DNA from: a virus
Taxonomy: Duplodnaviria; Caudoviricetes
Strand: one strand, 5' to 3'
Length of the DNA stretch: 64,000 bases
IMG/VR virus record: IMGVR_UViG_3300029288_000063
Location: 64,001 to 128,000 of that record
Shown here: piece after piece, positions 4,508 through 62,685 of the stretch
How the letters are laid out: every line of letters begins with the position of its first letter
Numbering within the stretch: the first letter of the stretch is position 1
The notes under the pieces: model-generated
Told to the model about the DNA's origin: nothing
The model's input: the letters and a program-made list of their open reading frames with translations, nothing else
Database searches by the model: none
Position numbers and translations under genes: made by a program

Positions 4508-6235
4508 ATGGGTACGATGAAGGGTATTGTTAAGAAGGCTGTTGCGAAGGCGAAGCTCCCCTCGGAGTGTCCGGATGCGATGGTGAACCGTGCAGGCGGT
4601 GTTGCGTTTGACATTTCCGACCCCGCCACGAAGCTTCTGACTATGACCGGTGGCAGCTTTTTCGCGGAACCGCGTTACTACAGTGACTCGGCGTGCCGCC
4701 CGAAGCGTCTGGCGTCCGGCAAGTTCGGCAAGCTGGAAGAGCGTCTGCGTCTGGCGTCCGACAAGGCCGCGAAGTTCGTCAACTGTGAAGAGCTGGATGA
4801 TGTTGCGAAGGAAATCATCGCGACGGCTGTCGATGTGGCGAATGGTTCCAGTCCGCGTGACTTGCTTGCGCTGGCGAACTGGCTGCGCAACGAGGGCAAT
4901 ATCCGTCTGACGCCGCAGGTGTTCCTTGTGCTGGCGTCACGTATGGAAGGTTCGAAGCCGTACGTGAAGAAGTACGTCGAGAAGATTGTGAAGCGTCCGG
5001 ACGAAATCAAGACCGTTCTGATGCTGTACCGTTACTTCTTCGGCATGAAGTGTCTGCCGAACGCGCTGGCGACCGGTCTGTCCGACCGTCTGTCCAAGAT
5101 TGGCGAGTCCGCCTTGATGAAGTACGATGGGAAGGACTTCCCGACGTGGAAGGACGTTTTGTGCTGGCTGCCCCGTGAAAAGGGTTGGCCGCTGTCCGAT
5201 GACCTTTCTGTTTATTTCAAGAAGGGTGTCGTGACGGACAAGACCCCGATTGCTCGTGACCGTTCGCTTCTGGCGAAGTGTGGTGAGTTCGACGCCAAGG
5301 CGCGTGCTCTTGCGAAGTCGTCCAATGTTAACTGGGAGGTTCTGCTCTCGCAGTTCGGCACGAGCGACTCCGGCAAGAAGGCTGTGTGGGAGTTCCTGAT
5401 TGCGGAAGACCTCGTCGGTTACATGGCGATGCTCCGTAACCTGCGGAACCTCGTTCAGGCGGGTGTTGGCAAGGACACGCTGAAGAATGTGTACGACAAG
5501 CTGTCCAATGCCGAAGAGGTCAAGCGGTCGAAGCAGCTTCCGTTCCGGTTCCTCGCCGCGTACAACGAGTTGGAGCATGTCGGTGCGTCCGGAAACATCT
5601 CCAAGATTCTGGAGGCTATCGAGAACGCGACTGAGGTTGCCATCGAGAATTGCCCGAAGTTCCCCGGCAGCACCATCGTCGCCGTGGATGACTCCGGCTC
5701 TATGGGAGCCGGAATCTCGCGGATGTCCTCGATGACCGCCTTCGACGCGGCGTGTTCGCTCGGTGCCATCTGTGCGCGTCGTGGTGAGGATGTCAACCTG
5801 TGGGCGTTTTCGGATGGTGTCCGTGAGGTCAATATCACGAAGCACACGACCATGATGGGCATCGCCAAGAAGGTCGGTAATCACAGTGGTGGCACCAACA
5901 CGTACCTCGTGATTCAGAAGATGATTGACGAGAAGCTGTTCCCAGACCGTCTGTTCATTTTCAGCGACATGCAGGCTTGGAACTCGGGTTGGGGTTCCGC
6001 GAACTGTGCCGACCTGTGGGCGAAGTATCGGCGTATGGGCGCGGCGGCTGGCAAGACGTGGCTGCACAGCGTCAACATCATGGGCTACGGCGACACGCCG
6101 TTCTGTGAGGCTGACAAGCGTTTGAACCTCATCGGTGGCTTTAACGAGGCGGTTCTGTCGATGGCGCTCAAGGCTGAGGGTGTGAATGGGGAGGACAACA
6201 TTCCGCCCATGTCCTACATCCGCGATAATTTCTAG
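4508..6235 (+). CDS. rsr: Ro60/Rsr-like TROVE + vWA RNA-binding protein
   Basis: NRAGGVAF, YMAMLRNLRN, SKQLPFRF, vWA DDSGSM and FSDMQ. Confidence 0.9.
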   Translation: MGTMKGIVKKAVAKAKLPSECPDAMVNRAGGVAFDISDPATKLLTMTGGSFFAEPRYYSDSACRPKRLASGKFGKLEERLRLASDKAAKFVNCEELDDVAKEIIATAVDVANGSSPRDLLALANWLRNEGNIRLTPQVFLVLASRMEGSKPYVKKYVEKIVKRPDEIKTVLMLYRYFFGMKCLPNALATGLSDRLSKIGESALMKYDGKDFPTWKDVLCWLPREKGWPLSDDLSVYFKKGVVTDKTPIARDRSLLAKCGEFDAKARALAKSSNVNWEVLLSQFGTSDSGKKAVWEFLIAEDLVGYMAMLRNLRNLVQAGVGKDTLKNVYDKLSNAEEVKRSKQLPFRFLAAYNELEHVGASGNISKILEAIENATEVAIENCPKFPGSTIVAVDDSGSMGAGISRMSSMTAFDAACSLGAICARRGEDVNLWAFSDGVREVNITKHTTMMGIAKKVGNHSGGTNTYLVIQKMIDEKLFPDRLFIFSDMQAWNSGWGSANCADLWAKYRRMGAAAGKTWLHSVNIMGYGDTPFCEADKRLNLIGGFNEAVLSMALKAEGVNGEDNIPPMSYIRDNF

Positions 6236-9681: not shown

Positions 9682-9772
9682 ACGGGTTGGTTTCCATGAA
9701 GTCTATGGGTCAAGGGTTTAACCCTTGACCTTTTTTTTATATTCTTCCGTTATAGACAACATGGAGACTATT

Positions 9773-11302
9773 ATGGAATCGGAAGAGAAAACTAGGTATA
9801 AGGCGATTTTTGATAGCCTGATGATGGGTGTTGTAATTATTGGTCAGGACTTTCGTATCGCCGCCTACAATGAACAAATGCGTGCTTGGTTTCCCGAAGT
9901 TCGTGTGGGGATGTTTTGCCACGATATTCTTGGTTGTGGCTCCGAGTGCAACGGCGTTGGTTGCTTGGTGCATCAAACCTTTATTGATGGGTGTCGTCAC
10001 GAAAAAAAGTTCCGGGTTGTCAAGGACGACGAAGAAATTAAGGTTTACAGGATGGTTGTGTATCCGATGCGTCAACCGAGTGGTGAACAAACTATTGCGG
10101 CTGCAATTAGGGTTGTTGAGGACGTCACGGAGTGTGCCAATCGTGAGGCGACGGATATTCAGACGCTTCAGTTGGCCGCCGTTGGTCAGTTAGCTGCCGG
10201 TATTGCGCATGAGTTCAACAATATAAACTCTGTAGTAAAGGGTCATCTTGAGTTGTTATACCAAGATGACTCGTTATCACAGAAGAATCGTGATCAGATA
10301 AAGGTTATGTTGGAGGTTGTTCGTCAGGGGATAGATATTACCAAGAACATGTTGATGTTTGCCCGTGACAGGAAGGGTCGTGCAACTGGTACGTTTATTG
10401 CTGATATTGTTCGTGACGTGCTCTCTATTATTAGTAACGACCTAAGGTCGGAGGGCGTTGAGGTTATTGTTGACCATCAACCGAACGTGCGCGTGTTGGT
10501 GAACGTGTCTCAGATGGGTCAGGTGATCATCAACTTGCTGCTTAACGCCCGGCACGCGCTTACAGGTAGGAACATAAAGCGATTGACGATTCGTTCGTGG
10601 TGCGACTCAAAATCGGCGTACATCTCTGTTGAAGATACAGGGTGCGGTATTGCTGAGAAGAATATCAAGAAACTGTTTAGCCCGTTTTTTACAACCAAGG
10701 GTGAACACGCCGAATCCGGTTCGCAGATGTCATATGTAAAGGGTACGGGGCTTGGGTTGTCGATTTGTCATACTATTGTCGAGAAACACCACTCCGGCAA
10801 GATTCTTGTGGAAAGCAAAGAGGGTGTTGGGTCAAAGTTTACGGTTGTTTTGCCGTTGTTTGAAGGTCCGGTTGAGATTAAAAAGAGCAGCACTGTAATG
10901 ATGAAAGCTCTTACTCCGGGTAATGGTGAAAGGGTCTTGGTTGTAGATGATGAGCCAAAGATTTCAAGTGTTATAAAAATGGTGTTGACGAATCAGGGAT
11001 ATTCCGTTGTATGTTGCTCTGATAGTTTAAAGGCTTTGAAGCTTTATAATGAGAAACCGTTTGACGTAGTTATTTCGGATATTAAGATGCCGGGTATTAG
11101 TGGTCTTGAGATGGCTGAATACCTGTATGAGATGAAACCGCGCCCGGTGACGATTCTTATGACTGGTGCCTTGCAGGATGAGGCGTCGGTGAAGCCTCCT
11201 AAAGCAGATGCCATGCTGACTAAACCATTTGCGTTTGAGGATATGCTGGCAATTATTAGTTTAGGTCTTTTTGGTCGTAAATCAGCAAAAGATATTGCCT
11301 AA
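9773..11302 (+). CDS. hybrid sensor histidine kinase (PAS-HisKA-HATPase-REC)
   Basis: AHEFNN, N box LLNA, DTGCG, FFTTK, GTGLGL, VVDDE, SDIKMP. Confidence 0.92.
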   Translation: MESEEKTRYKAIFDSLMMGVVIIGQDFRIAAYNEQMRAWFPEVRVGMFCHDILGCGSECNGVGCLVHQTFIDGCRHEKKFRVVKDDEEIKVYRMVVYPMRQPSGEQTIAAAIRVVEDVTECANREATDIQTLQLAAVGQLAAGIAHEFNNINSVVKGHLELLYQDDSLSQKNRDQIKVMLEVVRQGIDITKNMLMFARDRKGRATGTFIADIVRDVLSIISNDLRSEGVEVIVDHQPNVRVLVNVSQMGQVIINLLLNARHALTGRNIKRLTIRSWCDSKSAYISVEDTGCGIAEKNIKKLFSPFFTTKGEHAESGSQMSYVKGTGLGLSICHTIVEKHHSGKILVESKEGVGSKFTVVLPLFEGPVEIKKSSTVMMKALTPGNGERVLVVDDEPKISSVIKMVLTNQGYSVVCCSDSLKALKLYNEKPFDVVISDIKMPGISGLEMAEYLYEMKPRPVTILMTGALQDEASVKPPKADAMLTKPFAFEDMLAIISLGLFGRKSAKDIA

Positions 11303-37523: not shown

Positions 37524-39512
37524 ATGGGGACGCAAACGCACAAGAATCATGGGTTGAATAAAGATATGGTGGAGCAGTTATATCTTCGAGACGGGTTGAG
37601 TGATTCGGAGATTGGTTCGAGGTTTGGGTTGACTGGTGAGGGTGTTGCGTACTTCAGAAGAAAGTACGGCATCAAAACGATTTCTCAGTCTGATAGGATA
37701 TCTATCAGGGCAAGAAAGATCGGACTGATGGAGCTTTCTGTGGTTTCTGATGATGAGTTGATTCGGTTATATGATAAGCATGGGATGGTTACTCTTGGGA
37801 GGATGTTTGGGTGCAGCAAAATTCCAATCCGAGAAAAACTGCGCCGTCTAGGGGTTTGCATAAAAACGAAGCAAGATAGGACGGTAAGCGGGCATCCGGA
37901 CAGCCTGTCCCTGATGCAGCAGGAGGTGTTGATTGGGTCGCTGCTTGGAGATGGATGCCTCGTTGTGAACAACCTCGGGGATGCTGCCCATTTCCAAGAG
38001 ATGCATTCGGCAGCTCAGAGGCGATATCTGGAGTGGAAGCACGATGTGTTCATGCCTTTCTCCAAAAGGATTCACAAAGAGGATAAGGTGTTGGACGATG
38101 GGAGGGAATCGAAGGGTTTTGGTTTTAAGACATGTGTTCATCCGTTGTTTGTTCGGTTCTATGATATGTTTTATGGGGGAGCCAAAAAGCATCTTCCAGA
38201 TGGCTTGATGAGGAATATCTCGCCACTGAGTTTAGCGGTCTGGTATATGGACGATGGCTGTCTTTCTGATCAAAATAAGGACGGAGTATTCACGATAGCC
38301 TCTGGGTTTTGTAAAGAATCTGTTGAGGTTATTGCTGATTCGCTTAATGATCGGTTTCAGTTTGATATTGAAGTTCGCGAAGTAGATAGTGTGTCTGTTC
38401 TTGTTTTTCATAACAAGCAGAAATTCTTCGATGTTATTGGTAGGCACATTGTTCCGTCGATGGCATATAAGGTTCCTTTGAGTTTGAGGTTTTCCATGCC
38501 TCATATTCGGAATCCGAAGTTGTATGGGTTGCCAAACAAACTTTCTCCTGCGGAGGTTGCGAATCCATCTGAAGGACTGTTGGATGATCTTGTTGAGTTT
38601 TGGCAGGTTGCAGGGTTTCCTTTTCCAAGCGTTCCGAAGAAAGACAAGAGGTTGAGCGAGATAGAAGCGGTCAGAAATTCCAAGATAGAGCTTTCAGAAG
38701 TAGTTGGGTCTGGATTCTCTTCTGGCTGTGGGTTGTGTCTGTCGTTCTTCGAGAATGTTTGGTCGGTGAAACGGCATGGGCAAAAAAGCCCAGAGGATGT
38801 GTTTTACGATAAGGCTCTCTTGAGGCATGCTATCCGTGACTGCTTGAAGCATCGTGGTGGGTGTCGGGAGTCGGAATTGCGTTCTGAGCTTCGAACGTTT
38901 GGAGGGGTCCAAACGTTTCGTCCGGTTGTCGCAAGGGCAATTTATGATCGCTATTGCCCGGTTGGCGGGCGAGTTCTTGATCCCTGTTCTGGTTGGGGAG
39001 GGCGATTGCTTGGGTTCTATGCGTCCGTTGTGTCGGAGTATATCGGGGTTGATGCGAATCCAGATACCGTGAAGGGGCTGAAACATATGCGGTGTTTGTT
39101 GGGTCGGGATGTTGCGGGTAAGTCTGTTGATATTAAATATGCCGCTTTTGAGGACTTGAAACTTGATGGATCATTTGATGTCGTCTTTACGTCGCCTCCG
39201 TATTTCTGTAAAGAGTTGTACGGGGACGATGAGTTTCAGAGTTATGTCCGGTATGGCAAATACAACGATTGGCGGGATGGATTTTTGAAGCCTCTTGTTG
39301 AGAAGTCCGTTTCCGTTTTGAAGCGTGGAGGTTTTTTGATACTCAATGTTGCGGATGTTCGGGTTGGTGGTGATGTTTTCCCACTTGTCGAAGACACACG
39401 CTCGCTGATGAAGTCTGTTATAGGGCTGTTTGCGGAACACAACATGGAGTTTCTGAGTCCATATGGCGGGAAGACAAGGTTTGAACCAATTCTCGTTGGT
39501 CGGAAGGATTGA
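37524..39512 (+). CDS. HTH + LAGLIDADG endonuclease fused to an amino-DNA methyltransferase
   Basis: IGSLLGDG and AVWYMDDG; DPCSGWGGR and FTSPPY. Confidence 0.85.
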   Translation: MGTQTHKNHGLNKDMVEQLYLRDGLSDSEIGSRFGLTGEGVAYFRRKYGIKTISQSDRISIRARKIGLMELSVVSDDELIRLYDKHGMVTLGRMFGCSKIPIREKLRRLGVCIKTKQDRTVSGHPDSLSLMQQEVLIGSLLGDGCLVVNNLGDAAHFQEMHSAAQRRYLEWKHDVFMPFSKRIHKEDKVLDDGRESKGFGFKTCVHPLFVRFYDMFYGGAKKHLPDGLMRNISPLSLAVWYMDDGCLSDQNKDGVFTIASGFCKESVEVIADSLNDRFQFDIEVREVDSVSVLVFHNKQKFFDVIGRHIVPSMAYKVPLSLRFSMPHIRNPKLYGLPNKLSPAEVANPSEGLLDDLVEFWQVAGFPFPSVPKKDKRLSEIEAVRNSKIELSEVVGSGFSSGCGLCLSFFENVWSVKRHGQKSPEDVFYDKALLRHAIRDCLKHRGGCRESELRSELRTFGGVQTFRPVVARAIYDRYCPVGGRVLDPCSGWGGRLLGFYASVVSEYIGVDANPDTVKGLKHMRCLLGRDVAGKSVDIKYAAFEDLKLDGSFDVVFTSPPYFCKELYGDDEFQSYVRYGKYNDWRDGFLKPLVEKSVSVLKRGGFLILNVADVRVGGDVFPLVEDTRSLMKSVIGLFAEHNMEFLSPYGGKTRFEPILVGRKD

Positions 39513-42985: not shown

Positions 42986-43094
42986 CAGCACGCTTCAGAC
43001 ATGGGTTACTTCTTTTCTCATACAAAAGACCTGACGGTTCGACTCCGTCGTTGGGTGGCCCCGGTAACGTCGCCTGTGTCGCTTTTTGGTGCTG
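42986..43094 (+). ncRNA. Y RNA-like ncRNA
   Basis: CAGCAC-GCTTCA-GACATGGG-TTACTTC ... T arm ... CCTGTGTC-GCTTTTTG-GTGCTG. Confidence 0.7.
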
Positions 43095-43106
43095 GTTTTT
43101 CGGTTT

Positions 43107-43247
43107 GCGTCACACTTCAGGATGGACATACTTCTGACGCTTAATAGCCGGCTGCGGGTTCGATTCCCGTCGGTCAACTTCGGTTGGCTGTTGCTCATGG
43201 TTGAGCCGTTTGTTCGGTTGAGCCGTTCGTTCGACTTTTGGTGACGC
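43107..43247 (+). ncRNA. Y RNA-like ncRNA with permuted tRNA domain
   Basis: Shared terminal module; T arm, UUCG-closed acceptor-like stem, D arm. Confidence 0.75.
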
Positions 43248-43258
43248 TTTTGTATTGC

Positions 43259-43332
43259 GACGGAGGAGTTGGGTTCGAGTCCCGACCGGAAGCCCATACG
43301 GGATTCCGTGGCGTAACAGGCAGCGTGCCGTC
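43259..43332 (+). ncRNA. stand-alone permuted tRNA-like element
   Basis: GACGG/CCGTC closing stem, T arm GGGTTCGAGTCCC, looped acceptor stem, D-like arm. Confidence 0.55.
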
Positions 43333-43345
43333 ATCTTGTTTTTTT

Positions 43346-43505
43346 CCACACGCTTCAGCGATGGGTTACTTCCATGCTAAGGACGAGGTCGCAGGTTCGA
43401 ATCCTGCTCCCCCAACCCTTGCCCCTGTGATTCTGCGGGGGTATGGGCTGGGGGATGGCTCAGCGGTAGAGCGCGTAAACTAGCCTGTTGCGACTTTTGG
43501 TGTGG
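43346..43505 (+). ncRNA. Y RNA-like ncRNA with permuted tRNA domain
   Basis: Shared module; GCAGGTTCGAATCCTGC precedes GGCTCAGCGGTAGAGC. Confidence 0.8.
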
Positions 43506-43508
43506 ATT

Positions 43509-43697
43509 TTATATTCTGTAGGCGATGTGGTGTCCGAGGCGTCGGAAGTATGATGCCATGCCGCAGACCGACTTTCTTGTGTCGAGGTCGAAGATTTCGG
43601 CGAGGAGGTCGAGGCTTTCGTTTGGAAACCATTCTGCGAAGATGGCGATTTCGTTTTGGTTCCATGTTGCGTGTTTGGTGCGTATTGCTGTTGCCAT
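43509..43697 (-). CDS. small hypothetical protein (possible HTH)
   Basis: AAGGAG SD on the minus strand; only convincing minus-strand gene. Confidence 0.55.
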   Translation of the reverse strand: MATAIRTKHATWNQNEIAIFAEWFPNESLDLLAEIFDLDTRKSVCGMASYFRRLGHHIAYRI

Positions 43698-43775
43698 GAT
43701 ATTCTCCTTGAAAGGTGTGAGTTTCAGTATTTTATCCTACCATGTGTGTTTTGTAAAATATCTTGCTAAAATAAT

Positions 43776-43990
43776 GCCTCGGTGGCCTAACGGATAAGAC
43801 ACGACCCTCATGTCCTCGTAGCACAACGGATAGTGCATGCGGCTCCGAACCGCAAAATCCATGTTCGATTCATGGCGAGGATACCATTTTGTGGTATGGT
43901 TTCACGGTAAAGGAGTTCTCGTGAGAAGTCGTCCGTCTAGTGCAACTGCTGTAGGTCGTCATGTAGGTTCGATTTCTATCCGGGGTCCCA
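43776..43990 (+). pseudogene. split tRNA-Arg relic (5' half 43776-43809, 3' half 43953-43990) enclosing tRNA-Arg(CCG)
   Basis: GCCTCGG/CCGGGGT acceptor and CGACC/GGTCG anticodon strands pair. Confidence 0.7.
43812..43886 (+). tRNA. tRNA-Arg(CCG), nested replacement
   Basis: Cloverleaf, CCA. Confidence 0.9.
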
Positions 43991-44581
43991 AAAAAAGATT
44001 CGAAGAAGGTTCCAGTTTTTTCAAATATCCTCGATAGTGTGGTGTAGAATAGAACGAAAGGATTTTGACAAGCTACTGCGGTGTAAGTGCCGCCTCGGGT
44101 TGTGAAAAGGTCGGTCCAATCAACCGACCCAAGCGAACGGTTCGAGTCCGTCCAAGTTGGCAAGTAAAGTCGGCTGATTACCGAAAACACTTGTCGGGTT
44201 GGGTTCCCTCGGGTGAGGGCGAAATCGCCAAACCGACTGTTTTGTTCTTTGAAAACCACCGACAATTCGCCTAATGGGTTACGTCATCGGTGCCACCATC
44301 ACTGATGTACGTGTAAAACGCATAAGGCATCCCTAGTGAGTTGTCAACCGAGTCTTGTATGGTCGGCCGTTATATGGGATAGGTGGGTTTCATCGTTGTC
44401 GGTATACGATGAATTTAAGATTGGTGCCTCGTGGGATGTACGTTTGGCGCAAAATCGGGGTCTGCGGTTCGAGTCCGCAGTCGAAGAACCCGGAAACGGG
44501 AAAGGAATACCCCGGTGGGTGTAGCGGAGACAAATAGCCGGTAGCCAGCGTGGCGAACAAGCATCCCGTTTTGAAGTTTTT

Positions 44582-44647
44582 TTCGCACGCTTCTGTTGTG
44601 GGTTACTTCCTTTTGACGAAAATACCCATAACAACTTTTGGTGCGAA
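44582..44647 (+). ncRNA. Y RNA-like ncRNA, minimal form
   Basis: TTCGCAC-GCTTC-TGTTGTGGGT-TACTTC...ACCCATAACA-ACTTTTG-GTGCGAA. Confidence 0.7.
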
Positions 44648-45071
44648 TGTTCTTTGAAAACCACCGATGCACGGAAATAGCGTGTAGGAGCGACTCGGTC
44701 GACCCCCGTCGATTATGTTGCTTTGCCCCCAGTACCCCAAGTTACATGCTGAGCTGTGCGTCAACCGTGTCCTTGGTGTTGCGTCCCGCCCTTCGTGACG
44801 CCAAATGATAGGTGGGGTTCCTCGGTGGTCGGTGTGCCGGGGAGTTTTTTTTGAGTTCTTTGAAATCTGCTCTTGGACTGTAGTAGGAAGAACCAGCGAC
44901 ATCAATGAGAGGTCAATGCCGAACATGTCGTGGTGTAATGTAGCATAGCCACCATTGGGTGGAAGGTTCTTGTCGAGTCTTGACGAACAACGGCTTCCGA
45001 AAACACAGGGACATATCGCGGTCGCATGCAACCGTTGATGTGCTTGCCAAGGGTAGATTTCAGGGAATTTT

Positions 45072-45136
45072 ATTCGCACTCTTCAGTGACGGGATACTTC
45101 TCATACAAGCGACCTGTTGCGATTCTTGGTGCGAAT
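45072..45136 (+). ncRNA. Y RNA-like ncRNA, minimal form
   Basis: ATTCGCAC-TCTTCA-GTGACGGG-ATACTTC...CCTGTTGC-GATTCTTG-GTGCGAAT. Confidence 0.7.
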
Positions 45137-45186
45137 TTTGATTTCCCACGCTGACGGGTTGGCGTCCAGTGGGGTTTTGCAAACAT

Positions 45187-45263
45187 ACGCCCGTAGCTCA
45201 GTTGGATAGAGCGTCGGTTTCCTAAACCGAAGGGCAGCAGTTCAAATCTGCTCGGGTGTACCA
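45187..45263 (+). tRNA. tRNA-Arg(CCT)
   Basis: Cloverleaf, CCA. Confidence 0.9.
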
Positions 45264-45272
45264 AAATTTAAT

Positions 45273-45300
45273 GCGCCAGTAGCTCAGTGGTAGAGCACAA
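45273..45300 (+). pseudogene. orphan tRNA 5' fragment (Gly-like)
   Basis: GCGCCAG-TA-GCTCAGTGGTAGAGC-ACAA, no T arm. Confidence 0.55.
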
Positions 45301-45326
45301 TAGAGGCGCTGTTTGGCTTAATAAAA

Positions 45327-45401
45327 GCGGGCATAGCCTAGTGGTCAGGCACCACCTTGCCAAGGTGGGTCACGCCGGTTCGACTCCGGTTGCCCGCTCC
45401 A
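45327..45401 (+). tRNA. tRNA-Gly(GCC)
   Basis: Cloverleaf, CCA. Confidence 0.92.
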
Positions 45402-45423
45402 ATATTGAAGTTTTTTGAAGCAT

Positions 45424-45496
45424 GGTGCATGAACCCAAATGGCGCGGGAACTGGCTGTGAACCAGTTGTTAGCGGGTTCGAATCCCGTCTTGCACC
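45424..45496 (+). tRNA. tRNA-His(GTG), CCA not fully encoded
   Basis: G-1:C73 pair, CT-GTG-AA loop, T arm. Confidence 0.8.
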
Positions 45497-47042: not shown

Positions 47043-47202
47043 AATTTATAATCGCCTATGGTCGGGCGTTGGGGGTGCCATTAGAAACGCCAGCATATGG
47101 CTGTGCAAGCGTTTCTGACGGTGTCTCGGTTTGACAGTACCAAGCAGCCTCCCAGTGGCGTCAGACGGGCACGGTGCGAATCGTGGCGAATGCTTGGGAC
47201 CT

Positions 47203-47329: not shown

Positions 47330-47404
47330 GCCTCCGTAGCACAGCGGATAGTGCACCGGATTTCTAATCCGGCTACAGGGGTTCGATTCCCTTCGGGGGT
47401 GCCA
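47330..47404 (+). tRNA. tRNA-Arg(TCT)
   Basis: Cloverleaf, CCA. Confidence 0.92.
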
Positions 47405-48109: not shown

Positions 48110-48325
48110 ATGGATTCGATTCAAGCCGCTATTTCACGTTTGTTTGTTTTGGTAGAAAAAGCAGAATCCAACCAAGAAGACATTTCGGTAAGCCGATATG
48201 TATGTCGGTTGTGCGGTGAAAGTCGACAGTCACTTTGCGAGTGTATAGATCACATTGTTGGTCTGCATTCTGAAAGGCTGAATGAGGTTCGCAACGCTGT
48301 AGATGTGATATGTAAGCGGGTGTAG
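48110..48325 (+). CDS. small C2H2-like Zn-finger protein
   Basis: CRLC...HIVGLH. Confidence 0.45.
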   Translation: MDSIQAAISRLFVLVEKAESNQEDISVSRYVCRLCGESRQSLCECIDHIVGLHSERLNEVRNAVDVICKRV

Positions 48326-48373
48326 CTCAATGGTAGAGCGCCAGCCGTATTAGAAAGGATTTGGGATAGATTA

Positions 48374-48447
48374 GCGCCTATGGTGTAGTGGCCGCATCTT
48401 TGCCTTCCAAGCAAAGGGTCCGTGTTCAAATCACGGTAGGCGCTCCA
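48374..48447 (+). tRNA. tRNA-Gly(TCC), nested replacement
   Basis: TTTGC-CTTCCAA-GCAAA, CCA. Confidence 0.9.
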
Positions 48448-48522
48448 AACCAATAAATTCTTTATATTCGACCCGCTGTTTTGGAACCCGTAATTGGGTT
48501 CCAAAACAGGAGGGGGGTCGAC

Positions 48523-49185
48523 ATGAAGAGTGATGAACGACAAGAGGCAAGAAAACTCAGGGGACAGGGATTATCTGTCAAAGAAATAACAAGGAGAGTC
48601 GGAGTCGCAAAGTCGTCAGTGAGTCGCTGGGTCAGAGACATCGAGCTTACTGACGAACAAAAAATGAACCTCCGACCATGCACAGTTGCTTTTGGAATCA
48701 ATCGATTAAGGTATTTTTCTGAACTTCGGGACTCATACAGAGAAGTAGGGAGAGACCAAGCCAAGAAAAACAACCTTTTGCATGCAATGGGGTGCATGCT
48801 CTACTGGGCAGAAGGATGGCACACAAACAATCGGAACTGTATGAAGTTTTCAAACTCAAGTGTTCCGATGATGAAATTGTTTCTGAAGTTCCTGCGGAAT
48901 GAGATGTCTGTAAAAGATAATGATGTCATCATCAAGATACATTGTTATACAGACAAAAGGAGCGCAAGCGACATTGAATCGCACTGGCTTAACGAACTCG
49001 GTCTTCCGCAAAACTGTTTGAGGAAAACGGTGGCAGACAAAAGGCCGGGGTGTACGCAGAACAAACGCAACAACATTCTGGAATGGGGAACATGCCATCT
49101 GATTATACATGACGTGAGAGTCGTTCAAGGCATCTACGGCGCAATCGAGGAGTATGGGAAATTCAGGAATGGTGCATGGGATTGA
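48523..49185 (+). CDS. HTH + LAGLIDADG-like endonuclease
   Basis: GLSVKEITRRVGVAKSSVSRW; GCMLYWAEG, FSNS; A-rich composition. Confidence 0.7.
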   Translation: MKSDERQEARKLRGQGLSVKEITRRVGVAKSSVSRWVRDIELTDEQKMNLRPCTVAFGINRLRYFSELRDSYREVGRDQAKKNNLLHAMGCMLYWAEGWHTNNRNCMKFSNSSVPMMKLFLKFLRNEMSVKDNDVIIKIHCYTDKRSASDIESHWLNELGLPQNCLRKTVADKRPGCTQNKRNNILEWGTCHLIIHDVRVVQGIYGAIEEYGKFRNGAWD

Positions 49186-49247
49186 GCCAAGCTGGTTATG
49201 AGGGTTCGATTCCCTTCACCCGCTCCAAATTTGGAAGGTGGTGAGAC

Positions 49248-50916: not shown

Positions 50917-51008
50917 TGCGGGGGAGTGAAACGGATTTCCCGAAAGGGAATAATCATTCAAGCCCCATAAGCTTGAGATAGTGGGTTCGACTCCCATCCC
51001 CGCGTCCA
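50917..51008 (+). tRNA. tRNA-Met(CAT), fMet-like, with a hairpin inserted in the D loop
   Basis: TGCGGGG/CCCCGCG, CC-CAT-AA loop, CCA. Confidence 0.8.
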
Positions 51009-51266: not shown

Positions 51267-51359
51267 TGAAGTGGCTATTTAATATTGTTTTCCCGTTTGG
51301 GATTCCGTATTGATATCGCCAGCATAGCTCAATTGGTAGAGCACCTGCTTTGTTGTAAC

Positions 51360-51433
51360 GCTGGCATAGTTCAATGATAGAATAGTTGTCTTGTAAGCAT
51401 CAGACGATGGTTTGATTCCATCTGCCAGCTCCA
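51360..51433 (+). tRNA. tRNA-Thr(TGT), nested divergent replacement
   Basis: CT-TGT-AA loop, A19:U56 compensatory pair, CCA; one anticodon-stem mismatch. Confidence 0.75.
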
Positions 51434-51506
51434 ACAAACAGAAACGCAGACCAAGTGACCAATTCTTTTATGGTCTCCATTCGAATAGCGTAGTCGGCTA
51501 TTTTGG

Positions 51507-52199
51507 ATGGAGGACAAGAGAATGTTCAAGTGCGAAAAGTGTGGTAAGGAGTTTGACAACGAGAGGTCGTTTAGTGGGCACAAAGGTGCCTGCGGGAAGA
51601 AAAAAGAGTGTCCTGTTTGTTGTCGGATGATAAGTGTTTCGAATTTTATTGCGCATGTGAAGTCGCATGAAAACGACAAGGCTTGTCCAGCGTGTGGTGG
51701 GGTGGTTCATGGTCGTGGACGCTTTTGCTCGAAAAGTTGTGCTGCCTCGGTGAACAATGTTGGTGTTGTTCGCAATGGGGTAAAAAAGAAAGACGCGTTT
51801 TGTTTAACGTGTGGAAAGATTTTGGTTCGACGTCAGGTTAAATATTGTTCAAATCATTGCCAACAAGAAAAGAAATATAGAGAATACATAGGTCGGTGGT
51901 TGATTGGAAAAGAAACAGGCAACATGGATGGTTGTATGAATATATCAAATTATGTTCGACGTTGGCTATACGAAACGAGGGGGAAAAGGTGTGAGGGGTG
52001 CGGGTGGGCGAGAAAACATTCGATGGACGGTTCGATTCCGATTCAAGTCGAGCACATTGATGGTAATGCTCAAAACACGACACCTGAAAACTTGAGGATA
52101 TTGTGTCCGAGTTGCCATAGTTTAACGTTGACCTTTGGAAACAGAAACAAGGGAAAGGGTCGATCAAAGAGGCGATCAAAGAGGTGTTCAAAAGAGTAA
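51507..52199 (+). CDS. Zn-finger HNH endonuclease
   Basis: EHIDGN..N..PENLRILCPSCH; several CxxC. Confidence 0.9.
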   Translation: MEDKRMFKCEKCGKEFDNERSFSGHKGACGKKKECPVCCRMISVSNFIAHVKSHENDKACPACGGVVHGRGRFCSKSCAASVNNVGVVRNGVKKKDAFCLTCGKILVRRQVKYCSNHCQQEKKYREYIGRWLIGKETGNMDGCMNISNYVRRWLYETRGKRCEGCGWARKHSMDGSIPIQVEHIDGNAQNTTPENLRILCPSCHSLTLTFGNRNKGKGRSKRRSKRCSKE

Positions 52200-52309
52200 G
52201 CAGGCGGTTGGGGGTTCGAGTCCCTCTGCTGGCTCCATAAAGAAGCTACTTTCCTTCATGAAAACGCCGATATGGCTCAGGAGGTACTCTACCTACTTGG
52301 ACAACAAAT

Positions 52310-55251: not shown

Positions 55252-55473
55252 ATGATTGACAACCACACTGTTGGTTCTGTGAAACGCATTTCGCCGGTGT
55301 TGAATAGGAATGCTATTGTAAAGAGTGGTGGAGTCCTCCAACAGTCGGAGGAGGTTGGTTATGTTGTAAGGGAGAAAATCGGCGTTGGAGTATATAACCC
55401 ATCCGCGTTAAATCTGTTCTTAAAAAAAGAGTCTGAAGGGGCGTTGCCTGTTTATGATGAAGACCCGAATTGA
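55252..55473 (+). CDS. hypothetical protein
   Basis: GAGG SD. Confidence 0.45.
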   Translation: MIDNHTVGSVKRISPVLNRNAIVKSGGVLQQSEEVGYVVREKIGVGVYNPSALNLFLKKESEGALPVYDEDPN

Positions 55474-57641
55474 AATTCTGTTATGAACTTGATATAGGAA
55501 AGCTGAATATGATCAGGAGAGTTCTTTTTTCGATAGTAGTGGTTGCTGCTATTTGCACTGTTGTTTTAGTGACGATATCAATGACTGTCGTCAAAAATGG
55601 ATTCTCTTCTGTAGATGAGGATCGGGTGATTGAATCCTCACACCTTGTTCGTTCTATCGTTCAAAGAGAATTGCTCGGTTTGGCCAGCACTGTTGGGGAT
55701 TGGTCACGGTGGGATGATGCTTGGGAGTATGTTAATCAAGACGGCAAAGATAGGTCTTTTGTCGAACAAAATATTGATCTCGCTTCACTATTACAGTTGC
55801 GCGTGTTTTATGTCATGTTTCTTGGACGGGATGGACATCCTATTTCCGAATTTGTTGTTCGTGACGGGGACATCTATGAGGTTCCGAATTCCGAGCTGTC
55901 CTTGGCGTCTATAGATGGTTTTCAATCGGCATCTGAACGGTGCATGCGCGGCGAGGTTGTGCAGGGTTTGTCTTGGATAGGAGACAAGATGTCCTTGGTG
56001 GCAATGTCGTCTATCTCTAAGTCGGACGGTTCGTGTGTCGGAAACGGTATGTTGGTTTTCTGTCGTGATGCGTCCGGTATGGTTTCGGAAATTAACAAGA
56101 CGTTTGAGTCGTTTTCGATATCCGGTGATTGTTCAAGCGAGATAATGAACGACCTCGTTATCAATACCTCCGATTCGAGCGTGTCTGGGACTTTTCTTGT
56201 TCCCAGTGTTGAGGGAGGGAAAAACTATCTCGCAAGCCTATCTGTTCCGAGCTTTTCCGAGTTGCAGGGCAACCGCATTATCCTTGTTTTCGTTTTTGCG
56301 AGTATAGGGTTTGTTTTCGTTGTTTCGATTGCGCTGTGGAAGGTTGTTGATAGGATGGTATTATCGAGGCTTTCTGTCACAATGTCCGCTGTCAAAGAGA
56401 TTGGTCGTTCTGCCGATGTGACAAAGAAGCTGCCCGGTGGTGAATGTTCTGATGAGTTTGGCGTTTTCATTCACAACTTGAACGATATGCTTGAATCTAT
56501 TCGCGTGTCAGAAGAAAAGACAAAAGAATCAGAAAATGCTTTAAAACGTTCTGAGCGAGTAACACTTCTTGGCAAATTCGCGGAGGGTATTGCGCACGAC
56601 CTGAATAACCTTTTGGCAATTATTAAGGGCTATGCGGACTCGTTGAAGTTTGCCGGTTCACTTTCTGAATCTCTCGTGCTGTGTGACAACATAAGTTCCA
56701 CAGTCGGAGAATGTACGGCTTTGATTGGTAAGATTTTGTCGTTTTCGAGGCGTGGTAATATCAACTTTGTGCCGGTTGATCTGCACCCATTGTTGGGTGA
56801 TATATGTTCGATGTTTCATTACGCCATAGAGAAAAAGAGTGTATGTTTTGAATCGGTTATGGGGGCGGAGAACAGTGTGGTTCATGGGAACAAGTCTGAA
56901 ATTCAAAATGCCATATTGAGTCTGTTGGTTAATGCCCGAGAGGCTGTTTCTGATAATGGTCATATCTTTATCAAATCAAGAAACGTTATCGACCCTGACG
57001 GTTTGTCTTCTGGTGAATATGTGGAGGTGGAGGTGAGTGATGACGGTGTTGGAATTCCTCCGTCGATTATGAAAAATCTTTTTGTTCCATTTCAAACAAC
57101 AAAGGAATATGGAAAGGGTCTTGGACTTTCTTTTGTTCATGGGACGGCGGAAAGACACAAAGGAAGGGTAAGTGTTTCCAGTATTCCCGGTAAAACATCT
57201 GTGCTGCTCTTGATTCCGTGCTCTGAAAAAAAGGCTAGTGTTCCGGAGAAAAACAGCGTTATGAGACATAAGACTCCGTGTGTTGTGCATGTCGAAGATG
57301 AGGCGGCCATTCGTGAAATCGTTAAGTTGCAGCTTGAGGATGATGGGTTTTGTGTGAAATCTTTTGCGCATGGTGATGGTGCGATTAGTTATGTTCGTGA
57401 ACACAAGCAAGATGTTGACTTTGCGATTCTCGACTTCGCGGTTCCTCCTGTGGATGGTGTTTACATCTTTCATGAGATGAGAAAGATTATACCAACTCTT
57501 CCAGTTGCGTTTATGACTGGTTTTTGTGACGCTAGGGCTGAAGACTTGCGTGCCGAGGGGGCGGTCGGTGTTTTCGAGAAACCAATCAATTTCAAGTCAG
57601 TTCTTAGTCTTCTGAACGATATACTTGGAAAGCGTGGGTAG
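55470..57641 (+). CDS. membrane hybrid histidine kinase (CHASE4-HAMP-HisKA-HATPase-REC)
   Basis: DWSRWDD, two TMs, DEFG, AHDLNN, DDGVG, GLGL, VEDE. Confidence 0.9.
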   Translation: MKFCYELDIGKLNMIRRVLFSIVVVAAICTVVLVTISMTVVKNGFSSVDEDRVIESSHLVRSIVQRELLGLASTVGDWSRWDDAWEYVNQDGKDRSFVEQNIDLASLLQLRVFYVMFLGRDGHPISEFVVRDGDIYEVPNSELSLASIDGFQSASERCMRGEVVQGLSWIGDKMSLVAMSSISKSDGSCVGNGMLVFCRDASGMVSEINKTFESFSISGDCSSEIMNDLVINTSDSSVSGTFLVPSVEGGKNYLASLSVPSFSELQGNRIILVFVFASIGFVFVVSIALWKVVDRMVLSRLSVTMSAVKEIGRSADVTKKLPGGECSDEFGVFIHNLNDMLESIRVSEEKTKESENALKRSERVTLLGKFAEGIAHDLNNLLAIIKGYADSLKFAGSLSESLVLCDNISSTVGECTALIGKILSFSRRGNINFVPVDLHPLLGDICSMFHYAIEKKSVCFESVMGAENSVVHGNKSEIQNAILSLLVNAREAVSDNGHIFIKSRNVIDPDGLSSGEYVEVEVSDDGVGIPPSIMKNLFVPFQTTKEYGKGLGLSFVHGTAERHKGRVSVSSIPGKTSVLLLIPCSEKKASVPEKNSVMRHKTPCVVHVEDEAAIREIVKLQLEDDGFCVKSFAHGDGAISYVREHKQDVDFAILDFAVPPVDGVYIFHEMRKIIPTLPVAFMTGFCDARAEDLRAEGAVGVFEKPINFKSVLSLLNDILGKRG

Positions 57642-57706
57642 CTCAATGGCAGAGCGAGGGCTTCTAAAGCCCTGCGTTATGGGTTCGAGTCCCATCCTAC
57701 GCACCA
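57632..57706 (+). tRNA. amber suppressor tRNA (CTA)
   Basis: AGGGC-TT-CTA-AA-GCCCT, canonical D and T arms, CCA. Confidence 0.85.
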
Positions 57707-60523: not shown

Positions 60524-60610
60524 GCGGGTATGCTGGAATGGCAGACAGGTTGCGTTGAGAGCGCAATGGACGAATTGTCCGTGAGGGTTCAAGTCCCTCT
60601 ATCCGCACCA
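60524..60610 (+). tRNA. tRNA-Leu(GAG)
   Basis: Long variable arm, CCA. Confidence 0.92.
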
Positions 60611-60615
60611 AATTT

Positions 60616-60814
60616 ACCAGTCGTCTGAGGAAGCTCGGGACTGCACCGCGAAAACGGAGGAGGATTGTATAATCTGATTGGACTCCGGAGGCAGCAACCC
60701 CAAATAGGCCCGGAGCGGGAGCGCGGCGTGTTGAAGGGCGGGTTGGGGGCTTAGACCAATGCACGGTTGAAAAACAGAATCCCGGCTACGTAGAACTGTG
60801 CGCGGTCGACTGGT
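60616..60814 (+). ncRNA. rnpB: RNase P RNA, minimal and circularly permuted
   Basis: GAGGAAGCTCGGGA, GCAGCAACCCCAAATAGG, GGGT, TAGACCAATG, ACAGAATCCCGGCTA conserved blocks. Confidence 0.85.
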
Positions 60815-61974: not shown

Positions 61975-62072
61975 AATATAGGCGTATAGCTCAATTGGTA
62001 GAGCACCGGTTCCAAAAACCTTCGGTTTGATAAATAATTTTATAATCTCGTGTCTGTTGAATGGAGACAGAC

Positions 62073-62600
62073 ATGAGGAAGACAAAGTGGACAGATGAAG
62101 AATTGTCGTTGTATGTTGCCGAGTCGTTTGGTTTTTCTGACCTTTTGAGAAAGTTAAAACTTTCAGTATCTAGTGGAAATTACAAGACAATAAGAAGACG
62201 TATAGAAAGTCTTTGTTTGGATACTAGGCATTGGACTGGAAAGTCTCAATGTGGAGATCGAAACCCAAGTTTTCGTCACAGAATTCCGCTTGAACAGATT
62301 TTGGTAGAGAATGGGTTTTATAGGAATCTGCCAAGATTGAAACAGAGGTTGATTAAAGAGGGTTTGTTAGAAAACAAGTGTGCTATTTGCGGACTTAGTT
62401 CTGTGTGGAATAATAAGAAAATTGTTATGATTTTGGATCATGTAAATGGTGAATCATTTGATCATAGATTTGAAAATTTGAGACTTGTTTGTCCGAATTG
62501 TAATAGTCAGATTGATACTTTTGCTGGAAGAAACAAGAAGAAAAAACGAACGGATGCAGCAAGTGGGTGTTGCGGTCAGACTCCAAATCTGACGTCTTAG
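62073..62600 (+). CDS. HNH endonuclease
   Basis: CAICG, LDHVNG..DHRFENLRLVCPNCN; AT-rich. Confidence 0.9.
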   Translation: MRKTKWTDEELSLYVAESFGFSDLLRKLKLSVSSGNYKTIRRRIESLCLDTRHWTGKSQCGDRNPSFRHRIPLEQILVENGFYRNLPRLKQRLIKEGLLENKCAICGLSSVWNNKKIVMILDHVNGESFDHRFENLRLVCPNCNSQIDTFAGRNKKKKRTDAASGCCGQTPNLTS

Positions 62601-62627
62601 CGGGTTCGATTCCTGTCATCCGTGCCA
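62550..62627 (+). tRNA. tRNA-Trp(CCA), nested divergent replacement
   Basis: ACGGATG/CATCCGT, TCAGA-CTCCAAA-TCTGA, C8:G14, G73 and CCA. Confidence 0.85.
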
Positions 62628-62685
62628 ATCTTGTAATCCGTTCAAAACCGGCGGTTGGGGGTTCGAGTCCCTCTGCGCCTGCCAT

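What the first reader, a model, noticed from the sequence alone, without database searches (positions are those of the whole stretch)
43776..43990. Relic cassette: split tRNA-Arg enclosing intact tRNA-Arg(CCG), nuclease absent
Seen: the 5' half ends CGACC-CT-C and the 3' half begins A-GGTCG. Both halves carry mismatches, while the nested Arg(CCG) is intact and only about 65 nt of other insert remains. Inference: the late stage of the homing cycle, after the endonuclease gene was lost and the replacement tRNA took over.
Basis: partly seen in the sequence, partly recalled or inferred. Interest (0 to 1): 0.7.

Follow-up and report, generated by a model that had tools for sequence, protein, structure and literature searches.

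The report
Arginine tRNA gene nested inside broken one
In this giant phage an older arginine tRNA gene was split at its anticodon by a 143-base insert carrying a complete replacement arginine tRNA gene; a related phage still has the gene unbroken at the same spot, and the insert looks like a selfish nuclease cassette that has lost its nuclease.

Summary
43776-43809 and 43953-43990 are the two halves of one tRNA gene. They enclose AT, an intact tRNA-Arg(CCG) (43812-43886) and 66 other bases. Rejoined, the halves score mid-range among the window's 47 real tRNAs.

New here: the only syntenic relative I could fetch (L079, a 3.7-kb metagenome contig) has one uninterrupted tRNA-Arg(CCG) in the same slot. 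So the outer gene was a resident Arg(CCG) and the 143 bases are an insertion that replaced loop positions 35-37. The outer shell has two derived defects: C11xA24, and G53.U61, which is G-C in all 50 comparison tRNAs.

The "nuclease lost" part stays an inference. It rests on three intact nuclease-plus-tRNA cassettes of the same layout in this genome, and on a strong ribosome-binding site plus GTG 34 nt after the inner tRNA that now opens only a 38-codon frame.

This scan has already noted such cassettes, by its own unchecked notes, in over 300 genomes, and gene-less relics elsewhere. This is a decayed member of that kind, now with an empty-site allele. Interest is moderate.

The parts
43509..43697 (-). 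Flanking 62-aa gene (P0002), the synteny anchor. It is not part of the insert.
   Evidence: It has an ATG with a GGAGA ribosome-binding site and a promoter-like site at 43757-43729. An 80%-identical homologue lies beside the unbroken tRNA-Arg(CCG) in L079.
43776..43809 (+). 5' half of the resident (outer) tRNA-Arg(CCG) pseudogene, positions 1-34. It ends CGACC-CT-C.
   Evidence: The D-loop AACGGATA carries the A20-type GGATA motif seen in all four Arg tRNAs of the window. The D-stem has C11xA24 where L079 has G24.
43810..43811 (+). AT, the first two bases of the insert (5' junction).
43812..43886 (+). Intact inner tRNA-Arg(CCG) with encoded CCA, the working replacement copy.
   Evidence: ARAGORN. 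Rfam tRNA 62.1 bits. No mismatches, one G.U pair, G53-C61. It is the only Arg(CCG) among the genome's 57 tRNAs.
43887..43952 (+). 66-nt remainder of the insert. It holds AAAGGAG (43909-43915), a 5-nt spacer and GTG (43921).
   Evidence: No repeat of it elsewhere in the genome. No Rfam family match. The combination of ribosome-binding site and start codon is rare on non-coding DNA of this genome.
43921..44037 (+). 38-codon frame from that GTG, running through the old 3' half into the conserved flank. It is too short for any nuclease and is the candidate stump of a lost gene.
   Evidence: No Pfam match.
43953..43990 (+). 3' half of the outer tRNA-Arg pseudogene, positions 38-76 including CCA. 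It begins A-GGTCG.
   Evidence: G53.U61 where all other tRNAs and L079 have G-C. It abuts the flank AAAAAAAG...AAGGTTCC... that follows the unbroken tRNA in L079.
43991..44110 (+). Conserved downstream flank, the second synteny anchor.
   Evidence: It aligns with L079 directly after that contig's tRNA-Arg(CCG).

Best explanation
The phage's tRNA operon once held an ordinary tRNA-Arg(CCG) gene in this slot, as relative L079 still does. A mobile cassette carrying its own, differently spelled tRNA-Arg(CCG) landed in the DNA of the anticodon loop, between C34 and A38, and replaced positions 35-37. By analogy with three intact cassettes in this genome, that cassette also carried a homing-endonuclease gene downstream of its tRNA.

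The old gene became two dead halves. The imported tRNA has anticodon stem TGCGG/CCGCA against CGACC/GGTCG in the old gene, so it would not be a target, and it took over CGG decoding. With no target left to cut, the nuclease gene was deleted. What remains is its ribosome-binding site, a GTG and a few codons. The old halves have begun to decay (G24A, C61U).

Shown: the nesting, the insertion relative to an empty-site allele, the intact inner tRNA and the decay of the outer one. Inferred: that a nuclease drove the insertion and was later lost.
For: - The halves rejoin into a tRNA of normal score, and shuffled sequence does not give this.
- L079 is syntenic on both sides and has one unbroken tRNA-Arg(CCG), loop CT-CCG-AA, exactly where the outer gene lies. 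The shared downstream flank starts right after the CCA of the outer 3' half.
- The outer gene resembles that tRNA more than the inner one does (68% against 61%), and differs from it in stems by paired, compensatory changes.
- The four best matches of the outer gene among 586 phage tRNAs are Arg, and the top two are Arg(CCG) with a near-identical anticodon stem.
- This genome has exactly four nested tRNAs. The other three carry HNH or HTH/LAGLIDADG-like ORFs; two have the order 5' half, inner tRNA, ribosome-binding site, ORF, 3' half, and the Trp one puts the ORF before the inner tRNA.
- AAAGGAG plus GTG lies 34 nt after the inner tRNA. On the mostly non-coding strand AAGGAG occurs 37 times in 253 kb and only 6 of those are followed by a start, so chance gives about 0.002 for a 66-nt stretch.
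- G53.U61 is unique to the outer gene among the 51 cloverleafs scored.
Against: - No relative or donor with a nuclease at this site was found.
- The 66 nt have no detectable similarity to the three resident cassettes or to anything else in the genome.
- The outer halves are barely decayed, so "late stage" is not shown by age.
- Same-slot tRNAs differ strongly between the two phages in general (Gly(GCC) 61%), so the outer gene and the L079 gene are homologous by position but not surely by descent.
- Only one relative is available, and it is a 3.7-kb contig.
Confidence: 0.55

Rival explanations
1. A nuclease-free mini-cassette from the start. The 143-nt unit (tRNA plus a short tail) was copied into the broken resident gene by repair after a cut made in trans by a nuclease encoded elsewhere, either in a co-infecting phage or at another locus. 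No nuclease gene was ever at this site in this lineage.
For: Trans homing of a defunct homing-endonuclease element is documented in T4, where MobE moves I-TevIII (PMC2790892, title and abstract seen). The outer halves are hardly decayed, which fits a recent arrival. No longer form was found.
Against: A donor with this nested layout must itself have arisen somehow, most simply from a full cassette. The ribosome-binding site plus GTG that opens only 38 codons looks like a truncated gene rather than a designed tail.
Confidence: 0.25
2. The outer gene still works. The inner tRNA is cut out of the transcript by RNase P and 3' processing, and the outer halves are then joined or act as a two-piece tRNA, so this would be an intron-like or split tRNA rather than a pseudogene.
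For: All four outer stems can still pair. ARAGORN can read a CAU anticodon with the break at the canonical 37/38 position. The phage carries RNA-handling genes: a CCA-adding enzyme and a Ro60 homologue.
Against: Three loop positions (35-37) present in the empty-site allele are missing, so no Arg anticodon can be rebuilt. The G53-C61 pair found in every other tRNA here is broken and the D-stem has a mismatch. There is no intron or ribozyme family match. Bacteria and phages have no known bulge-helix-bulge splicing. The CAU reading uses the first base of the inner tRNA.
Confidence: 0.04
3. An artefact: a metagenome mis-assembly, or a local recombination between neighbouring Arg genes, that only mimics an insertion.
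For: The genome is an uncultured metagenome assembly with many similar tRNA genes, and tRNA turnover between relatives is high.
Against: The two halves match no other tRNA of the genome. They complement each other in 7 of 7 acceptor pairs and 5 of 5 anticodon-stem pairs. They abut the flanks conserved in L079. The same layout occurs three more times with long unique ORFs inside.
Confidence: 0.03

Closest known systems
Phage T4/T6 SegB, a free-standing GIY-YIG homing endonuclease in the tRNA gene cluster (PMC2330249; PMC13096335)
   Same: It is a selfish nuclease gene living among phage tRNA genes. It cuts the tRNA region of a related phage and spreads with flanking tRNA genes by repair.
   Different: SegB sits between tRNA genes and does not split one. 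No nuclease is present at this locus, and the intact cassettes in this genome carry HNH or HTH-type proteins, not GIY-YIG.
Group I introns with homing endonucleases in tRNA anticodon loops (cyanobacterial tRNA-fMet intron with I-Ssp6803I; tRNA-Leu(UAA) and tRNA-Arg(CCU) introns). From my own knowledge.
   Same: The target is the same place, the DNA of a tRNA anticodon loop, and the same kind of selfish driver is proposed.
   Different: Those introns keep the host gene working by self-splicing. Here there is no ribozyme (no Rfam intron match; the insert is only 143 nt), and function is kept by a second complete tRNA gene inside the insert.
Homing-endonuclease life cycle of invasion, fixation, degeneration and loss (Goddard and Burt 1999, from my own knowledge; Burt and Koufopanou 2004 appears in the reference list of PMC8421152), and T4 MobE trans-homing of the defunct I-TevIII (PMC2790892)
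   Same: It predicts nuclease-less remnants once every target is occupied, and shows that defunct elements can still be moved in trans.
   Different: Classical loss restores the intact host gene. Here the host gene stays broken and the imported copy stays, so the change is one-way.
Mobile endonuclease ORFs in organelle genes that bring a replacement gene end and leave the old end as a pseudogene (Allomyces atp6, Paquin et al. 1994). From my own knowledge, not checked here.
   Same: The logic is "break it and bring a spare" instead of splicing.
   Different: In that case a protein-gene terminus is replaced in frame. Here a whole tRNA gene is nested inside the one it replaces.
Split tRNA genes of Nanoarchaeum and permuted tRNA genes. 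From my own knowledge.
   Same: A tRNA gene is present as separated 5' and 3' halves broken in the anticodon loop.
   Different: Those halves are functional and are joined by the archaeal splicing machinery. Here the loop is incomplete, the shell is decaying, and a full copy sits between the halves.

Membership tests
Nuclease-plus-replacement-tRNA cassette nested in a tRNA gene (as at 48316-49227, 51318-52237 and 61980-62684 of this window) | Two tRNA halves, broken in the anticodon loop, that rejoin into one cloverleaf | tested here: met
   with the shuffle control.
Nuclease-plus-replacement-tRNA cassette nested in a tRNA gene | A complete tRNA of the same amino-acid identity inside the insert, spelled differently in the stems | tested here: met
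   The inner gene is Arg(CCG). The outer gene is Arg(CCG) by position in L079 and by nearest neighbours. The anticodon stems differ at all five pairs.
Nuclease-plus-replacement-tRNA cassette nested in a tRNA gene | An endonuclease ORF inside the insert | tested here: not met
   Only 66 nt remain besides the tRNA. The longest frame starting inside them has 38 codons and no Pfam match. This is a member at most as a decayed derivative.
Nuclease-plus-replacement-tRNA cassette nested in a tRNA gene | An unbroken target gene at the same locus in a relative (empty site) | tested here: met
   L079:2946-3023(-) is flanked by the P0002 homologue and by the conserved downstream block.
Nuclease-plus-replacement-tRNA cassette nested in a tRNA gene | A relative with the same insert still carrying the nuclease (occupied site) | tested here: inconclusive
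Group I intron in a tRNA anticodon loop | A ribozyme core able to self-splice | tested here: not met
   No intron family match at E up to 1 in 42000-64000. The insert is 143 nt, of which 75 are a tRNA.
Functional split or intron-bearing tRNA | A complete anticodon loop after removal of the insert, and conserved tertiary pairs | tested here: not met
   Loop positions 35-37 are absent compared with L079. G53.U61 and C11xA24 are present.

The most novel reading that the evidence does not exclude
The 143-nt unit is not dead debris but a minimal, nuclease-free mobile tRNA module. It would still spread in trans whenever a matching nuclease cuts unbroken Arg(CCG) genes in co-infecting phages. On this reading, cassette invasion followed by nuclease loss is a one-way ratchet that drives the rapid same-slot tRNA replacement seen between related giant phages (Gly(GCC) is only 61% identical in the same slot).
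Probability: 0.12. Interest if true: 0.7.

Novelty: new variant of a known kind. Interest (0 to 1): 0.45.

Why it matters
If the reading is right, this locus is the end state of a selfish-element strategy that I could not find in the papers searched. The nuclease occupies an essential RNA gene by bringing a spare gene instead of a self-splicing intron. After the nuclease is lost, the host is left permanently with the imported tRNA.

That would make homing elements a direct cause of tRNA gene replacement in phage tRNA arrays. It would also explain orphan tRNA halves that annotation pipelines ignore or miscall; ARAGORN, for example, reads this one as an intron-bearing tRNA-Met.

The empty-site allele in L079 gives a concrete target sequence for cleavage tests. 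The general cassette design has already been noted many times by this scan, so the added value here is the decayed stage plus the empty site, not a new principle.

Tried and rejected
- **Cultured phages.** Megablast of 8 kb gave no match. blastn of the locus hit only the inner tRNA, weakly, against two Rhodococcus phage tRNA-Arg genes.
- **Flanking 263-aa protein as a synteny anchor.** It has no homologue anywhere.
- **The 662-aa protein as an anchor.** Hits came only through its LAGLIDADG domain and were not syntenic.
- **Relatives found by terminase (49-56% identity).** Five of these records (L014, L016, L017, L018, L020) had no match to the locus. Two of those checked for tRNAs carry arrays but nothing like this slot.
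- **Exact or degenerate DNA patterns.** The outer 5' half, the 5' junction, the downstream block and the inner T-arm plus acceptor all gave nothing. The back-translated stump gave one chance hit in a high-GC contig without tRNAs.
- **The inner acceptor/T-loop pattern.** It returned 49 phage tRNAs, nearly all Arg, none closer than about 70% to the inner gene. They served for the nearest-neighbour test only.
- **Intragenomic similarity** of the 66 nt, the halves and the flanks: none.
- **Comparison of the stump frames** with the N- and C-termini of the three resident nucleases: nothing shared.
- **MFE fold of the whole 215 nt:** not unusual, z = -1.25.
- **A possible second nuclease-free nest in L048:** it looked spurious.
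- **Rejected reading:** ARAGORN's tRNA-Met(CAU) with an intron at 37/38, because it borrows the first base of the inner tRNA and the empty-site allele reads CCG.

Full report
**What is there.** The window is part of a 253-kb uncultured phage record. It has 47 tRNA genes in the window and 57 in the genome.

At 43776-43990 the sequence reads as follows:
- a 34-nt tRNA 5' half, GCCTCGG-TG-GCCT-AACGGATA-AGAC-A-CGACC-CT-C;
- the dinucleotide AT;
- a complete tRNA-Arg(CCG) at 43812-43886 (ARAGORN; Rfam tRNA 62.1 bits);
- 66 further bases;
- a 38-nt tRNA 3' half, A-GGTCG-TCAT-GTAGG-TTCGATT-TCTAT-CCGGGGT-C-CCA.

**Is it more than chance?** The two halves pair 7/7 in the acceptor stem, 5/5 in the anticodon stem, 5/5 in the T stem and 3/4 in the D stem. 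Rejoined at any nearby junction, the halves are called a tRNA. They are still called when ARAGORN's thresholds are raised to 116%, which is mid-range for the 47 real tRNAs at 100-124%. In 960 kb of shuffled window only two intron-tRNA calls appeared, and neither enclosed a tRNA. Neither half matches any other tRNA of the genome, so this is not a chimera of neighbouring genes.

**Identity of the outer gene.** The anticodon cannot be read from the junction, and ARAGORN's CAU borrows the first base of the inner gene. Two independent lines say Arg(CCG).
- Among 586 tRNAs collected from this genome and about 70 other phage loci, the four best matches to the outer halves are Arg and 16 of the top 25 are Arg. 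The top two are Arg(CCG) genes with D-stem GCCT/AGGC and anticodon stem CGACT/GGTCG. The sample is Arg-enriched by the way it was drawn, so this line is supportive only.
- Position, described next, is decisive.

**The empty-site relative.** The 62-aa minus-strand gene 78 nt upstream (43509-43697, P0002) has one homologue in the protein collection (P0004, 80% identity). An alignment of the two found a 3,725-nt metagenome contig, L079. Its reverse complement is collinear with window 43007-45460. It carries the Y-RNA-like block, the P0002 homologue, a conserved non-coding block, tRNA-Arg(CCU), tRNA-Gly(GCC) and tRNA-His.

Between the P0002 homologue and the conserved block, L079 has one uninterrupted tRNA-Arg(CCG) at L079:2946-3023(-). 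It scores 51.1 bits, and its anticodon arm reads CTGCC-CT-CCG-AA-GGCAG. The flank AAAAAAAG..AAGGTTCC..TTTTTC..CGATAGT..GACAAGCTAC.GCGGTGTAAG follows the CCA of that tRNA in L079. In the window it follows the CCA of the outer 3' half.

So the outer gene occupies the slot of a resident Arg(CCG). The 143 bases at 43810-43952 are an insertion between C34 and A38 that replaced positions 35-37.

The outer halves are 68% identical to the L079 tRNA, and the inner gene is 61% identical. The outer gene differs from the L079 gene in the stems by paired changes (positions 2-71, 3-70, 28-42, 29-41, 50-64). It was therefore a working tRNA for most of its history. Same-slot tRNAs vary a lot between these two phages (Arg(CCU) 87%, Gly(GCC) 61%). 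I therefore claim positional homology, not certain descent. Co-conversion of flanks during homing could also have imported part of the outer shell.

**State of the two genes.** The inner gene has no mismatch, one G.U pair and a G53-C61 pair. It is the only CCG isoacceptor in the genome.

The outer shell has one mismatch (C11xA24) and four G.U pairs.
- G1.U72 and U4.G69 also occur in the working tRNA-Arg(UCU) at 47330.
- G49.U65 also occurs in the L079 gene.
- That leaves two derived defects, G24A and C61U.

G53.U61 is found in none of the other 50 cloverleafs scored, which are 47 genes and three other outer shells. The outer gene is therefore a young pseudogene. It lacks three loop bases and cannot rebuild an Arg anticodon.

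**Why a nuclease cassette is the best reading.** ARAGORN's intron search finds exactly four nested tRNAs in the 253-kb genome and essentially none in about 0.9 Mb of other phage loci. The other three are Gly 48316-49227, Thr 51318-52237 and Trp 61980-62684. Each encloses a same-identity tRNA plus an ORF. Thr and Trp carry HNH endonucleases (PHROG matches at 2.5e-24 and 1.8e-43). Gly carries an HTH protein with an MLYWAEGW motif. Gly and Thr share the order 5' half, inner tRNA, hairpin and ribosome-binding site, ORF, 3' half. All break at loop positions 32-36.

The Arg locus has the same order and the same break zone. AAAAGGAG-N5-GTG lies 34 nt after its inner tRNA, with AAAGGAG at 43909-43915 and GTG at 43921. 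On the gene-poor strand of this genome AAGGAG occurs 37 times and only 6 of those are followed by a start. On the coding strand 73 of 125 are. Chance for a 66-nt stretch is therefore about 0.002. The frame that this start opens is only 38 codons. It runs through the old 3' half and stops in the conserved flank, which is what an internally deleted gene would leave.

**What is not shown.** No relative or donor with a nuclease here was found. The inner tRNA lineage is absent from the viral and genome collections. The junction is absent from metagenomes. The stump has no true match. A mini-cassette moved in trans, as MobE moves the defunct I-TevIII (PMC2790892), fits the data almost as well. A still-functional split or intron tRNA and an assembly artefact are unlikely for the reasons given under rivals.

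**Comparison with what is known.** The closest published system is SegB of T4/T6, a free-standing homing endonuclease in the tRNA cluster (PMC2330249; PMC13096335). tRNA arrays with adjacent HNH genes have also been noted (PMC8421152). Neither involves a split tRNA with a nested spare. Group I introns in anticodon loops share the target but use splicing, and no ribozyme is present here. My paper searches found no description of tRNA-in-tRNA relics.

Within this scan, however, nuclease-plus-tRNA cassettes have been noted in over 300 genomes, and gene-less remains have been noted elsewhere. Those are unchecked AI notes that I used as leads. I re-derived the three resident cassettes myself.

**Verdict.**

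| Claim | My probability |
|---|---|
| The observation as described | confirmed |
| Insertion into a resident Arg(CCG) gene | about 0.9 |
| A nuclease was once here and has been lost | about 0.55 |

This is a decayed variant of a kind the scan already knows, made more solid by an empty-site allele.

Noticed in passing
window 50917-51007 (+): A 91-nt cloverleaf-like RNA that neither ARAGORN nor Rfam calls. It has acceptor UGCGGGG/CCCCGCG, anticodon loop CCCAUAA (CAU), a normal T-arm and CCA, and a hairpin inserted in the D-arm. Its fold has z = -2.3.
   Followed up: partly
window 43033, 43154, 43269, 43391, 44463, 60323, 61450, 61603 (+); proteins 4508-6235 and 933-2615: Orphan T-arm hairpins lie outside tRNA genes, and some give weak Rfam YrlA (Y-RNA-like) hits. 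The phage also encodes a Ro60/TROVE protein and a CCA-adding enzyme, so it carries a Ro-Y RNA module beside its tRNA array.
   Followed up: partly
window 45327-45401 vs L079:1292-1365(-); window 45187-45263 vs L079:1375-1451(-): Same-slot tRNAs in the two related phages differ very unevenly. Arg(CCU) is 87% identical but Gly(GCC) only 61%, which suggests frequent whole-gene tRNA replacement without visible scars.
   Followed up: partly
window 60609-60798 (+): A weak match (31.7 bits, below the gathering score) to archaeal RNase P RNA between two tRNA genes.
   Followed up: no
window 57632-57706 (+): A tRNA with anticodon CUA (an amber suppressor type, which ARAGORN labels Pyl), scoring 66.8 bits as a tRNA.
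   Followed up: no
window 9725-11302 and 55470-57641 (+): Two hybrid histidine kinase / response-regulator proteins (PAS or CHASE4, HisKA, HATPase_c, receiver domain) are encoded by the phage.
   Followed up: no
window 37524-39512 (+): A 662-aa protein holds a LAGLIDADG_2 endonuclease domain at residues 134-299, possibly an intein or a fused homing endonuclease.
   Followed up: no
window 48523-49185 (+): The ORF of the Gly cassette has an N-terminal HTH and an MLYWAEGW motif reminiscent of LAGLIDADG. It has no Pfam nuclease match, so its nuclease type is unresolved.
   Followed up: partly
window 47129-47197 (+): A very weak HDV-like ribozyme match (24.2 bits, E about 1) just upstream of tRNA-Thr(CGU). 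It is probably chance.
   Followed up: no
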